Shown: one piece after another, positions 4,480 to 60,392 of the stretch
How the letters are laid out: each line of letters starts with the position of its first letter
How positions within the stretch are numbered: the stretch's first letter is position 1
IMG/VR virus record: IMGVR_UViG_3300043331_000441
Coordinates: 1 to 64,000 of that record
From: a virus
Direction: 5' to 3' (one strand)
DNA length: 64,000 bases
Program-made: the position numbers and the translations under genes
The notes under the pieces: model-generated
What the model saw: only the letters and a program-made list of their open reading frames with translations
Told to the model about the DNA's origin: nothing
Database searches by the model: none

Positions 4480-4550
4480 GAGGGAGTAGCTCGAAGGTCG
4501 AGCCTCGGGTTGTGATCCCGACGGTGTGGGTTCGATTCCCACCTCCCTCT
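4480..4550 (+). tRNA. tRNA-His(GUG), no encoded CCA
   Basis: Acceptor GAGGGAG/CTCCCTC, D GCTC/GAGC, anticodon arm TCGGG-TTGTGAT-CCCGA, T arm GTGGG-TTCGATT-CCCAC. Confidence 0.85.
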
Positions 4551-4646
4551 TGGCGTCAGAGAGAATCCGACATGGCGGCTAGTGACCCGTTCGAGCCGGG
4601 CGCGGGCTGCGGGAGTGTTCACCGCAGGGACACCTCTCTGACGCCA
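4551..4646 (+). ncRNA. structured RNA candidate abutting the tRNA-His 3' end
   Basis: Perfect 13-bp closing helix TGGCGTCAGAGAG/CTCTCTGACGCCA with internal hairpins CCCG/CGGG and CTGCGG/CCGCAG. Confidence 0.5.
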
Positions 4647-56705: not shown

Positions 56706-56810
56706 GCGCCCGTAGCTCATTGGTAGAGCACCGGTCTGATTGGCCGGAGGTAAGCGCGAAAGCATAGGTGGGTTCATCGCCACCGAAAGGTTCGATTCCT
56801 GCCGGGCGCT
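56706..56810 (+). tRNA. tRNA-Ile(GAU)-like gene with 32-nt T-stem insertion (56756-56787)
   Basis: Acceptor GCGCCCG/CGGGCGC; D GCTC/GAGC; CCGGT-CTGATTG-GCCGG; T stem GC|insert|AGG-TTCGATT-CCTGC. Confidence 0.65.
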
Positions 56811-56839
56811 TACGCAAGAGAGCAGCGCACTCTCTAGGG

Positions 56840-56933: not shown

Positions 56934-57086
56934 CGGGATGTAGCTCAGTGGTAGAGCACCGGTCTGATGTACCGGAGGACGCGTCTGAAAAGACATAGGC
57001 ATTCCAGAAGGGCGACGTATTCGCGCTTTTGAGAAGCCGGAGCGAAATACTCCGTAAGCCGAAAGGTTCGAATCCTGCCATCCCGA
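56934..57086 (+). tRNA. tRNA-Ile(GAU)-like gene with 81-nt T-stem insertion (56983-57063)
   Basis: Acceptor CGGGATG/CATCCCG + A73; CCGGT-CTGATGT-ACCGG; AGGAC; GC|insert|AGG-TTCGAAT-CCTGC. Confidence 0.7.
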
Positions 57087-58935: not shown

Positions 58936-59246
58936 CACGTGGATTAGTAGACTGTCATGACGCATGGGCGGAGCATGGTGCGCAGCGAGAGGCTGTGACG
59001 AGGGTCGGCACACCCTGGTTGAAACACTCCGCCCTTGCACTAAGTAGTCTGTTCAGATCTGCGGCCCCAACCCGTCGAGCACGAAGGGCATCTTCACAGG
59101 CGGGAGGGCCGCAGAAAATCAGTGGGCCTCAGGTCTGTAGTAGCGAGTTGATCGCCGTGAACTGGCCTCGTGCAGCCTTTGTGAGCCGTAGTTGACGACA
59201 CGCTGCGGTGAGCAGGGGAAAGACCCGGCTAAGCGGGCGCCCACAA

Positions 59247-59314
59247 ATCCCGGCACGCCTGACAGGGAAGTGTTCTCAGTGGATAGGGTCAGTACATCCG
59301 AGAACCGCCGGGAT
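59247..59314 (+). ncRNA. structured RNA candidate with possible pseudoknot
   Basis: ATCCCGGC/GCCGGGAT, GTTCTC/GAGAAC, GGAT/ATCC; CTGAC (59259) complementary to loop GTCAG (59288). Confidence 0.45.
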
Positions 59315-59320
59315 CATGAT

Positions 59321-59405
59321 CTGCGCAGAGGGAGACGGGCGCGCGGCCATGCGTCGGAATCAGGGGCGGCGACCTTCCCCCCGACGTATTCGTACGGACT
59401 CCCTC
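59321..59405 (+). ncRNA. pseudoknot element E1
   Basis: CTGCGC/GCGCGG crossing GAGGGAG/CTCCCTC; inner ATGCGTCGG/CCGACGTAT. Confidence 0.6.
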
Positions 59406-59409
59406 ATTT

Positions 59410-59481
59410 GCCCCGGTCGTTCAGCGGCCAGGATGCCGCCCTGTCGAGGCGGAGACACGGGTTCGATTCCCGTCCGGGGCG
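59410..59481 (+). tRNA. tRNA-Asp(GUC), no encoded CCA
   Basis: GCCCCGG/CCGGGGC; CCGCC-CTGTCGA-GGCGG; ACGGG-TTCGATT-CCCGT. Confidence 0.9.
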
Positions 59482-59482
59482 T

Positions 59483-59572
59483 CTGCGCAGAGGGGAGACG
59501 GCGCGCGCAGCGCGGAGTCGATGAAGGAACAGAACCTCCTCCCTTCATCGCCTGCGGGATCGGACTCCCCTC
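59483..59572 (+). ncRNA. pseudoknot element E2
   Basis: CTGCGC/GCGCAG crossing GAGGGGAG/CTCCCCTC; inner CGATGAAGG/CCTTCATCG. Confidence 0.6.
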
Positions 59573-59590
59573 AGATGAAAGGAGAACACA

Positions 59591-59719
59591 GTGAAACTGC
59601 CGTTTCGACGTGCTGCGAAATATCGGACGCGCCGCCGGTGGGGCCGATGTCTGCTGTGCGGGCGCTTCGGGCGTCTCTACGATTGCGTGGGCGATTGGCT
59701 TTGTAGACGATGTGGATAG
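59591..59719 (+). CDS. 42-aa Zn-finger peptide
   Basis: GAAAGGAGAAC + GTG; CLLC...CRRC. Confidence 0.6.
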   Translation: MKLPFRRAAKYRTRRRWGRCLLCGRFGRLYDCVGDWLCRRCG

Positions 59720-59912
59720 AGGTGATCAAAAACGCCAGACACGAACTTCCTGAGTAAGACTCCGGGCCCGACGTCCGTAGTCGGATGGTGGATGCTCTAC
59801 CCTCGTCGGAGGCCCCATCCTGGCGGCGTCTAGTTGGGAGTGATGCCCCAACACGCACCTGCACCTGGGAACAGAACGCAGGGCGTTTCATCACAACAGA
59901 AGGGAGAACACG

Positions 59913-60392
59913 ATGGGTTTACGAGAGATCATCACTGGCAGCGACGCCGAGGATAAGAAGCTCAGCGCGTCCGTCGGTCTACGGCCTTACAAGCGCTGGT
60001 ACTTCTTTGGCTGGAAGTCCCCGCAGATTCTCTACCGGCGGCTACGCAACAAGTACTACCCACTCAAGCGTCTGCGTTGGGCTTCACAACGCGCACGACG
60101 CGGCTACGACGACCCCGCGATCTGGAACCTCAATTCCACACTTGCGGAACTCACAGTGATCGGCTGCCGCAAGCATCGCGAGTACGGAAACGGGTACCCC
60201 GCAGAGTTCACCGAGGAGTACGGCAGCGGCGGCGGGTGGGAGAAATGGGAGGACATCCTGCGCCGCATCGAAGAGGGCTTCCAGGCCTGGCTTGATGAGG
60301 ACGGCTTCTTCCACGAGAAGCCAGAGCAGGAAGCGAAGTTCAAGGACGGAATGGCCCTCTATGGCGAATGGTTCGGTTCGCTCTGGGACTAA
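59913..60392 (+). CDS. conserved phage hypothetical protein
   Basis: QRA.RGYDD..IWNL...GYP...W..IL..I..GF...F.SLWD. Confidence 0.75.
   Translation: MGLREIITGSDAEDKKLSASVGLRPYKRWYFFGWKSPQILYRRLRNKYYPLKRLRWASQRARRGYDDPAIWNLNSTLAELTVIGCRKHREYGNGYPAEFTEEYGSGGGWEKWEDILRRIEEGFQAWLDEDGFFHEKPEQEAKFKDGMALYGEWFGSLWD

What the first reader, a model, noticed from the sequence alone, without database searches (positions are those of the whole stretch)
59321..59572. Twin covarying pseudoknot elements bracket tRNA-Asp: candidate tRNA-processing ribozymes or signals
Seen: E1 (59321-59405) ends 4 nt before tRNA-Asp, and E2 (59483-59572) starts 1 nt after its discriminator. Both read CTGCGC-A-GAGGG(G)AG-ACGG..-GCGC(G/A)G-[variable long hairpin]-CGGA-CTCCC(C)TC. 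The second helix has a compensatory indel (7 vs 8 bp, extra G and extra C), the first swaps U-G for U-A, and the inner hairpins differ in sequence but keep pairing. Established: theta ribozymes are HDV-like ribozymes that trim phage tRNA 3' trailers; HDV helix order is P1-P2-P3-P1'-P4-J4/2(CNRA)-P2'. Inference: helix order and the CGGA before P2' resemble HDV, but only 6-7 nt lie where P3/L3 should be, so this is at best a novel variant or an unrelated motif. E1 also follows another structured RNA (59247-59314), consistent with a processing unit placed after each small RNA.
Basis: partly seen in the sequence, partly recalled or inferred. Interest (0 to 1): 0.8.

Follow-up and report, generated by a model that had tools for sequence, protein, structure and literature searches.

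The report
New pseudoknot RNA flanking phage tRNA
Two copies of a small, previously undescribed knotted RNA fold sit directly before and after the tRNA-Asp gene of an uncultured soil phage, and a third copy in a related phage shows matching base changes that confirm the fold; whether it cuts itself like the hepatitis-delta ribozymes it resembles is still untested.

Summary
E1 (59320-59406) and E2 (59482-59573) are the only two copies in the 130-kb phage. They bracket tRNA-Asp (59410-59481) as described.

I found a third copy, E3, at the matching position in a related metagenomic phage contig (L011:4661-4738). It supports the pseudoknot:
- P1 pair 4 switches C-G to G-C.
- P1 pair 2 is U.G in E1 and U-A in E2 and E3.
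- P2 carries a compensated 1-bp insertion in E2.
- The base of the inner hairpin (P4) has two compensated double changes.
- The 39 nt outside P4 are 92% identical between E1 and E3, against 72-78% for flanking genes.

It is not a member of the HDV-like or theta family. It has no P3/L3, position +1 is C rather than a G.U wobble, and no Rfam model matches. No other copy was found in IMG/VR or in GTDB genomes.

E3 is not next to a tRNA. All three copies directly follow a folded RNA with paired ends.

Best reading: a new self-contained RNA module that marks boundaries in a noncoding "RNA island". Self-cleavage is possible (about 0.2) but untested. The scan had noted this same stretch before, in an overlapping window of this genome.

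The parts
59320..59406 (+). E1, a complete pseudoknot module (U-1, P1, L1, P2, L2, P1', P4 hairpin, CGGA, P2', A+1)
   Evidence: Orthologue of E3 in L011.
59321..59326 (+). E1 P1 5' strand, CUGCGC
   Evidence: Pairs with 59341-46. Pair 4 is C-G here and G-C in E3.
59328..59334 (+). E1 P2 5' strand, GAGGGAG
   Evidence: Pairs with 59399-405. 7 bp here and 8 bp in E2 through a compensated insertion.
59335..59340 (+). E1 junction L2 (ACGGGC), at the place where HDV has P3/L3
   Evidence: ACGG is invariant in the 3 copies. Too short for a P3 hairpin.
59341..59346 (+). E1 P1 3' strand, GCGCGG
59347..59394 (+). E1 variable inner hairpin (P4-like)
   Evidence: Folds as a 9-bp stem plus an inner stem. 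Its base covaries with E3 (G.U to U-A and U-A to G.U; read).
59395..59398 (+). E1 junction CGGA (fits the CNRA pattern of HDV J4/2)
   Evidence: Invariant in the 3 copies.
59399..59405 (+). E1 P2 3' strand, CUCCCUC
59410..59481 (+). tRNA-Asp (GTC), with no encoded CCA
   Evidence: Rfam RF00005 60.4 bits; ARAGORN.
59482..59573 (+). E2, the second complete module. P1 59483-88, P2 59490-97, L2 59498-504, P1' 59505-10, hairpin 59511-60, CGGA 59561-64, P2' 59565-72
   Evidence: Paralogue of E1 whose inner hairpin cannot be aligned with E1's.
59247..59314 (+). Folded RNA with paired ends that precedes E1 by 5 nt
   Evidence: MFE -25.4 kcal/mol, z -2.1. Absent from L011.
58966..59036 (+). 'Module U', a conserved three-helix RNA. 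In L011 it lies 2-3 nt upstream of E3
   Evidence: The closing stem has 4 compensated pairs between the window and L011.
59715..59912 (+). 'Module D', a very highly conserved noncoding leader in front of the 159-aa gene and downstream of the E region
   Evidence: By my count from the alignment, about 90% identical to L011 with long identical runs, against 72-78% in coding flanks.
59591..59719 (+). Possible 42-aa arginine-rich CxxC..CxxC ORF behind E2, with RBS AAAGGAG
   Evidence: No homologue found, so doubtful as a gene.

Best explanation
E1, E2 and the orthologous E3 are copies of an undescribed, self-contained RNA module of about 78-92 nt, transcribed from the + strand.

The fold is an H-type pseudoknot. 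P1 is 6 bp, a single A joins it to P2 (7-8 bp), and an invariant ACGG-containing junction of 6-7 nt follows. A freely replaceable hairpin sits in the long loop. An invariant CGGA lies just before the closing strand.

The module sits at boundaries inside a noncoding RNA island, always directly 3' of a folded RNA with paired ends (tRNA-Asp, the 59247-59314 RNA, or module U).

Most likely role: it acts in cis as a punctuation element of a long transcript. The upstream RNA is cut free at the module's 5' edge by the host's tRNA-end enzymes (RNase Z after the discriminator, RNase P before the tRNA). The compact knot starts only 1 nt from that cut. It then stays as a folded 5' end on the downstream RNA, insulating neighbouring folds and protecting against 5'-end-dependent decay.

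Shown: the elements, their fold and their conservation. Inferred: transcription as one precursor, the position of the cut, and the protective role.
For: Fold:
- P1 pair 4 is a compensated C-G to G-C change, and pair 2 goes U.G to U-A.
- P2 has a compensated 1-bp insertion.
- The P4 base has two compensated double changes.
- All 3 differences between E1 and E3 in the 39 nt outside P4 lie in P1/P1' and keep the pairing. In simulation, random substitutions give this outcome with p about 0.011.
- G.U pairs fit only the + strand.

Selection: the 39 nt outside P4 are 92% identical between phages whose flanking genes are 72-78% identical.

Discreteness: conservation starts at U-1 and stops at A+1, and the flanks of the three copies are unrelated.

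Position:
- E2's U-1 is the base after the discriminator.
- E3 starts 2-3 nt after the covarying closing stem of module U.
- E1 starts 5 nt after a folded RNA.

Not a DNA palindrome: TCTGCGCAGA is palindromic in E1 and E2, but the E3 version TCTGGGCAGA is not, while the P1 pairing is kept.

Energetics: the P1 duplex is worth -8.6 to -10.1 kcal/mol. Freeing its strands costs only 0.6-4.8 kcal/mol of nested structure.

Self-cleavage not required or indicated: the tRNA lacks an encoded CCA, and the HDV-defining features are missing.
Against: - A plain hairpin would be enough as an insulator or 5' cap. The invariant ACGG and CGGA junctions and the conserved U-1 suggest a specific active or binding site.
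- Only three copies from two genomes are known.
- No RNA ends were mapped, and no promoter or terminator was found.
- E1 precedes a tRNA, whose RNase P cut would detach E1 from anything it might protect.
Confidence: 0.35

Rival explanations
1. E is a self-cleaving ribozyme with HDV-like topology but no P3. That would make it a new class or a radical variant. It would cut at U|C at the 5' edge of P1, like theta ribozymes, releasing the upstream RNA with a 2',3'-cyclic phosphate.
For: - Same helix order as HDV.
- P1 of 6 bp, a 1-nt J1/2, and a variable, replaceable P4.
- Invariant CGGA fits CNRA with a C at the catalytic position.
- U at -1 in all three copies.
- The 2 nt after P1' could pair with L2, like P1.1 (read).
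- Every copy sits directly 3' of a folded RNA. That is the arrangement described for theta ribozymes (PMC10879173).
Against: - No P3/L3, which builds the HDV active site.
- Position +1 is C in a C-G pair, not the G.U wobble.
- No hit to any ribozyme model in Rfam at E<=10.
- The phage has no RtcB, CCA-adding enzyme or LigT-type phosphodiesterase.
- The topology plus CNRA occurs 29 times by chance in this genome.
- New ribozyme classes are rare.
Confidence: 0.22
2. E is a stand-alone small RNA, or a protein-binding 'handle' that carries a variable module. This would parallel the phage's own Y-RNA array, where a constant handle is joined to diversified inner parts. It would act in trans or as an RNP.
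For: - Constant 5' and 3' blocks with a swapped inner hairpin.
- Invariant single-stranded ACGG and CGGA, as expected for a binding site.
Against: - The handle sequence is unrelated to that of the Y-RNA array.
- No candidate partner gene is conserved next to it. The adjacent 42-aa ORF has no homologue and is absent from L011.
Confidence: 0.2
3. E is one domain of a larger structured leader RNA (module U - E - hairpin or tRNA - module D) that controls the downstream 159-aa gene.
For: - In L011 the units U, E3, a strong hairpin and module D are contiguous over about 400 nt in front of the gene.
- Module D is about 90% identical between the phages (my count).
- Module U covaries.
Against: - In the window the units are separated by a 290-nt insertion, a tRNA and a second E copy, yet E is kept intact. 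E therefore behaves as an autonomous module.
- No covariation links E to the other units.
Confidence: 0.12
4. E is a DNA-level repeat: a recombination linker, an operator palindrome, or the ends of a mobile cassette that carries tRNA-Asp.
For: - Direct repeats flank a cassette (tRNA-Asp, E2, 42-aa ORF) that L011 lacks.
- Two HNH genes lie just upstream.
- TCTGCGCAGA is a 10-nt palindrome.
Against: - A crossing (pseudoknot) helix with compensated changes and G.U pairs has no meaning in duplex DNA.
- The palindrome is lost in E3 while the pairing is kept.
- L011 has a single copy at the same locus.
Confidence: 0.04

Closest known systems
Theta ribozymes and other HDV-like (delta-like) self-cleaving ribozymes (Kienbeck et al. 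2024, PMC10879173; Rfam RF00094, RF00622, RF02682)
   Same: - Crossing P1/P2 helices in the same order.
- A short J1/2.
- A dispensable, variable hairpin after P1'.
- CNRA-type junction (CGGA) before P2'.
- U at -1.
- Placed immediately 3' of a phage tRNA.
   Different: - No P3 stem or L3 loop; only 6-7 nt lie there.
- Position +1 is C (a C-G pair) instead of G.U.
- Theta ribozymes lack P4 and keep P3. E does the reverse.
- No covariance-model match.
- The orthologous copy is not next to a tRNA.
- Activity is untested.
Pistol ribozyme (Rfam RF02679)
   Same: From my recollection of the published fold: a 6-bp pseudoknot, then the order PK - P2 - PK' - hairpin - junction - P2'.
   Different: - No P1 stem enclosing the first pseudoknot strand.
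- No A-rich linker.
- No conserved G-U cleavage dinucleotide in the junction of all copies.
- No model match.
5'-terminal structures that stabilise bacterial and phage RNAs, and folded spacers in polycistronic tRNA/stable-RNA transcripts such as the T4 tRNA cluster with its stable RNAs (my own knowledge)
   Same: A compact fold starting within 1-3 nt of a processing site, inside a cluster of stable RNAs with short linkers.
   Different: Those are simple hairpins without conserved junction sequences. E is a pseudoknot with invariant loops, conserved across phages.
Bacterial and phage Y RNAs (YrlA-type), including this phage's own array
   Same: A constant terminal 'handle' combined with diversified inner modules, present in several copies in the same genome.
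   Different: Unrelated handle sequence, a pseudoknot rather than a bulged stem, and no tRNA-like domain.

Membership tests
HDV-like / theta ribozymes | Crossing helices P1 and P2 (nested double pseudoknot backbone) | tested here: met
   P1 of 6 bp and P2 of 7-8 bp cross. Both are supported by compensated changes.
HDV-like / theta ribozymes | P3 stem (about 3 bp) with L3 loop between P2 and P1' | tested here: not met
   Only ACGGGC or ACGGCGC (6-7 nt) lie there in all three copies. An alternative register giving a 3-bp P3 works for E1 only, not for E2 (reading).
HDV-like / theta ribozymes | G at +1 forming a G.U wobble at the base of P1 | tested here: not met
   Position +1 is C paired with G in all three copies.
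HDV-like / theta ribozymes | P1.1 (2 bp between L3 and J1/4) | tested here: inconclusive
   The 2 nt after P1' (CC, CG, CU) can pair with GG or CG of L2. A 2-bp match carries no statistical weight.
HDV-like / theta ribozymes | Catalytic C as the first base of J4/2 (CNRA) | tested here: met
   CGGA is invariant. This is sequence only. All the blocks outside P4 are conserved, so the match is weakly informative.
HDV-like / theta ribozymes | Match to the family covariance models | tested here: not met
   No HDV-type family at E<=10 in a 371-nt search or a 5.5-kb search.
HDV-like / theta ribozymes | Site-specific self-cleavage giving 5'-OH and 2',3'-cyclic phosphate | not testable with these tools
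   Needs an in vitro cleavage assay or end-specific RNA-seq.
Pistol ribozyme | P1 hairpin whose loop forms the pseudoknot, a conserved core, and a G-U cleavage site | tested here: not met
   No stem encloses the 5' strand. The junctions UCGUACGGA, GGGAUCGGA and GCAACGGA share no G-U step. No RF02679 match.
tRNA (the gene between the elements) | Cloverleaf scored by the Rfam tRNA model and ARAGORN | tested here: met
   60.4 bits, anticodon GTC.
Group II intron (raised by the genome-contig hits) | Homology of E to the multi-copy Bryobacterales repeat | tested here: not met
   That repeat is an intron of about 960 nt in which I found no reverse-transcriptase ORF (D1D4-4 79 bits, Intron_gpII 43 bits). 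It shares only the 21 bases forced by the search pattern. Its CUCCC pairs locally in a GCGA-loop hairpin.

The most novel reading that the evidence does not exclude
E is a new self-cleaving ribozyme that keeps the HDV arrangement of P1, P2, P4 and the J4/2 cytosine but has replaced the P3/L3 active-site hairpin by a 6-7-nt ACGG junction. It would cut exactly one base after the tRNA discriminator. This would be a second, independent solution to ribozyme-made 3' ends of phage stable RNAs, found in soil phages.
Probability: 0.2. Interest if true: 0.85.

Novelty: new variant of a known kind. Interest (0 to 1): 0.55.

Why it matters
Structured RNAs placed at the ends of phage tRNAs have only recently been recognised (theta ribozymes). 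They are thought to control when phage tRNAs become usable.

This element has the same position and the same helix order, but it lacks the part of the HDV fold that builds the active site. There are two possible outcomes:
- It may be a new way of building a small self-cleaving RNA. That would be of interest for ribozyme evolution and as a compact tool for making defined RNA ends.
- It may be a non-catalytic RNA that converged on the same layout. That would caution against calling HDV-like ribozymes from helix order and a CNRA motif alone.

The element also belongs to an unusually RNA-rich soil phage, which carries Y-RNA arrays, tRNA look-alikes and conserved leaders. That phage is a good system for studying how phages organise noncoding transcripts.

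Tried and rejected
Searches for more copies:
- Three exact-pattern scans of IMG/VR used the 5' block, the 5'+3' blocks, and the 5' block plus GCGC. They returned only coding or chance hits.
- The GTDB genome scan gave 58 loci. About 50 are one group II intron of about 960 nt, present in many copies in two Bryobacterales MAGs. The rest are coding-region hits. None shares anything beyond the forced bases.
- A mismatch-tolerant search of five related viral records found nothing.
- BLAST against cultured phages matched only the tRNA.

Relatives reached through neighbouring genes:
- Single-protein scans failed.
- A profile of the 159-aa protein gave 21 loci, of which only L011 is syntenic.
- Closer relatives exist as Logan contigs (P0002-P0009, 61-69% identity).

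Covariance model: none was built. MAFFT misplaces the P2 insertion and the 3' block, and alignments cannot be edited. I used my own descriptor scans instead.

Sequencing runs:
- Only contigs were available.
- One 151-nt metatranscriptome contig covers 59464-59614. It has only 19 nt left of the putative cut, so it does not count as bridging, and DNA carry-over cannot be excluded.
- No ends, joints or variants were reported. There is no verdict on cleavage either way.

Ideas rejected:
- A preQ1-type riboswitch (tRNA-Asp and tRNA-His are queuosine tRNAs): no Rfam match.
- Hammerhead or twister cores: no conserved core motifs.
- An alternative HDV register with a G.U at +1: it works in E1 only.
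- Cross-pairing between E1 and E2: the compensated insertion lies within E2.
- Identity of the E1 P2 helix with the tRNA-His acceptor stem (GAGGGAG/CTCCCTC): treated as coincidence.

Other negative results: the 42-aa ORF has no homologue, and the promoter/terminator scan was uninformative.

Full report
WHAT IS THERE

The window is the first 64 kb of a 130,556-bp, 60% G+C virus record from soil.

tRNA-Asp(GTC) lies at 59410-59481 (Rfam 60.4 bits) and has no encoded CCA. Two related elements flank it.
- E1 runs U59320, CUGCGC, A, GAGGGAG, ACGGGC, GCGCGG, a 48-nt hairpin, CGGA, CUCCCUC, A59406.
- E2 (59482-59573) has the same plan. Its P2 is 8 bp (GAGGGGAG/CUCCCCUC), its junction is ACGGCGC, its P1' is GCGCAG, and its 50-nt hairpin cannot be aligned with E1's.
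- E1 ends 4 nt before the tRNA. The conserved U of E2 is the first base after the discriminator.

The 5' block occurs nowhere else in the genome. BLAST of E1 and E2 against the genome finds only each other.

IS IT MORE THAN CHANCE

The helix order alone is not. A loose descriptor (P1 6-7 bp, P2 6-9 bp, CNRA) finds 29 sites in this genome. A 6-bp match between a 7-nt tail and a G+C-rich interior is easy to obtain by chance.

The decisive evidence came from a relative.
- The downstream 159-aa protein (59913-60392) has 44 homologues in soil metagenomes. A profile of them retrieved 21 loci.
- One locus, L011 (a 47-kb JGI contig), is syntenic with the window. Its coding flanks are 72-78% identical at the DNA level.
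- It carries a single copy of the element, E3, at L011:4661-4738: U, CUGGGC, A, GAGGGAG, ACGGGC, GCCCAG, a 39-nt hairpin, CGGA, CUCCCUC, A.

Covariation (with the P4 pairs read):
- P1 pair 4 is C-G in E1 and E2 and G-C in E3. This is a compensated double change in the pseudoknot helix.
- P1 pair 2 is U.G in E1 and U-A in E2 and E3.
- P2 gains one G-C pair in E2 through two matching insertions.
- At the base of the inner hairpin, G.U becomes U-A and U-A becomes G.U between E1 and E3. The hairpin of E2 is a different sequence that still folds.
- Outside P4, E1 and E3 differ at 3 of 39 positions. All three lie in P1/P1' and all keep the pairing. Random placement of three substitutions gives 'all pairs intact and at least one compensated pair' with p about 0.011.

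Further points:
- The 39 nt outside P4 (92% identity) are better conserved than the neighbouring genes.
- The G.U pairs make sense only on the + strand.
- TCTGCGCAGA, which opens E1 and E2, is a 10-nt palindrome. E3 loses the palindrome but keeps the P1 pairing, which argues against a DNA operator.
- P1 is worth -8.6 to -10.1 kcal/mol as a duplex. Keeping its strands free costs only 0.6-4.8 kcal/mol of nested structure.

I conclude that E is a real, selected, pseudoknotted RNA. The sample is small: three copies from two genomes.

WHAT IT IS NOT

No Rfam family matches E1 or E2 at the gathering threshold, or at E<=10 in a 5.5-kb or a 371-nt search. The same holds for E3.

For the HDV-like/theta family, the defining features split as follows.
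- Met: crossing P1/P2, a short J1/2, a variable hairpin after P1', and a CNRA junction beginning with C.
- Not met: the P3 stem and L3 loop, which form the active site (only 6-7 nt are available), and the G.U wobble at +1 (it is C-G).
- An alternative register that gives E1 a 3-bp P3 and a G.U at +1 fails in E2.
- Theta ribozymes are minimal forms that lack P4 and keep P3 (PMC10879173). E does the opposite.

The same helix order is also that of pistol ribozymes without their P1 stem (my recollection of the published fold). E lacks the pistol's conserved core and its G-U site. E should therefore not be filed in any known family.

HOW WIDESPREAD

Exact-pattern scans of IMG/VR (three designs) and of one genome per GTDB species found no further copy. 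The 58 GTDB loci are explained as follows.
- About 50 are a multi-copy group II intron of about 960 nt in two Bryobacterales MAGs, with no reverse-transcriptase ORF that I could find (Rfam D1D4-4 79 bits). It shares only the bases forced by the pattern and folds differently at that site.
- The remainder are coding sequences.

CONTEXT

E lies in a noncoding stretch of about 950 nt. Codon-position G+C of the overlapping ORFs is not gene-like.

Two other units of this stretch are conserved in L011.
- Module U (58966-59036) is a three-helix RNA whose 8-bp closing stem shows four compensated pairs.
- Module D (59715-59912) is a leader of the 159-aa gene. By my count from the alignment it is about 90% identical between the phages.

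In L011 the order is U, E3 (2-3 nt later), a strong 46-nt hairpin (z -3.5) whose stem GCCCCGGGG/CCCCGGGGC resembles the tRNA-Asp acceptor stem, then D. That hairpin is not a tRNA.

In the window, three changes are seen relative to L011.
- A 290-nt insertion containing hairpins and the 59247-59314 RNA separates U from E1.
- tRNA-Asp replaces the hairpin.
- A second copy, E2, and a doubtful 42-aa ORF follow. The ORF has no homologue.

So E is not tied to a tRNA.

The phage has no RtcB, CCA-adding enzyme or LigT-type enzyme. Two HNH genes lie upstream.

EXPRESSION

Public runs were available only as contigs.
- One 151-nt metatranscriptome contig matches 59464-59614 exactly. It joins E2 to the start of the downstream ORF. 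It has only 19 nt on the tRNA side, and DNA carry-over cannot be excluded.
- Another contig covers 59072-59259.
- No ends or variants could be read, so these data give no verdict on cleavage.

HOW IT MOST LIKELY WORKS

The module is discrete. Conservation starts at U-1 and stops at A+1. It has invariant single-stranded ACGG and CGGA, and it tolerates replacement of its inner hairpin.

My estimates for the competing readings:
- Cis-acting punctuation element, 0.35 (my preferred reading). The upstream RNA is released at the 5' edge of E by host tRNA-end enzymes (RNase Z for a CCA-less tRNA), and the knot remains as a folded 5' end of the downstream RNA.
- Self-cleavage at U|C in the manner of HDV-like ribozymes, about 0.2. 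This is the most specific alternative and would explain the invariant junctions better. It lacks the HDV active-site hairpin and has no experimental support.
- A protein-binding handle with a variable module, like the phage's own Y RNAs but with an unrelated handle, 0.2.
- A domain of a larger leader RNA, 0.12.
- DNA-level explanations, 0.04, now unlikely.

VERDICT

E is a new small RNA motif of soil phages. It is of moderate interest as it stands and of high interest if it cleaves.

Noticed in passing
window 59715-59912 and L011:4803-5000: A noncoding leader of about 200 nt in front of the 159-aa gene is about 90% identical between the two phages, with identical runs of tens of bases (my count). 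Flanking genes are only 72-78% identical. It has no Rfam match. It is probably a structured RNA or a DNA-level signal.
   Followed up: partly
window 58966-59036 and L011:4588-4658: A conserved three-helix RNA ('module U') lies behind an HNH gene. Its 8-bp closing stem shows four compensated pairs between the two phages.
   Followed up: partly
window 56706-56810 and 56934-57086: Two tRNA-like sequences score 41.8 and 46.5 bits with the Rfam tRNA model. They carry inserts of about 33 and 81 nt at the variable-region/T-stem boundary and have GAU-type anticodon loops.
   Followed up: no
window 4480-4636: tRNA-His has the acceptor stem GAGGGAG/CTCCCTC, the same 7 bp as P2 of E1. Within 2 nt it is followed by a long hairpin of about 85 nt closed by GGCGUCAGAGAG/CUCUCUGACGCC. 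A similar AGAGAG/CUCUCU hairpin follows the first tRNA-like RNA at 56817-56835.
   Followed up: no
L050:1350-2320 and about 50 further loci (L042-L099): Two Bryobacterales MAGs carry dozens of near-identical copies of a group II intron of about 960 nt, with no reverse-transcriptase ORF that I could find (Rfam D1D4-4 79 bits, domain V 43 bits). Some copies lie head-to-tail exactly 960 bp apart, for example in L047 and L079.
   Followed up: partly
L012:1-560: A related phage contig has two identical tRNA-His genes 480 bp apart. Each has the same flanks (GTTCT before, TTGTTCTAGGAACCTAGAAGGGAGGTG after), and a small gene lies between them.
   Followed up: no
window 59913-60392: A 159-aa protein with no Pfam or PHROG match has 44 homologues in soil metagenomes. 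They share many invariant Trp, Arg and Phe positions. It has no relative among cultured phages.
   Followed up: partly
window 59072-59259: A 188-nt contig of a soil metatranscriptome matches this noncoding stretch exactly. The stretch lies inside the 290-nt insertion relative to L011, so that insertion may be transcribed.
   Followed up: no
L011:4676-4683: The P1 covariation in E3 creates GGGCGCCC. Selection for the palindrome could have driven the first change, with P1 then compensating.
   Followed up: no
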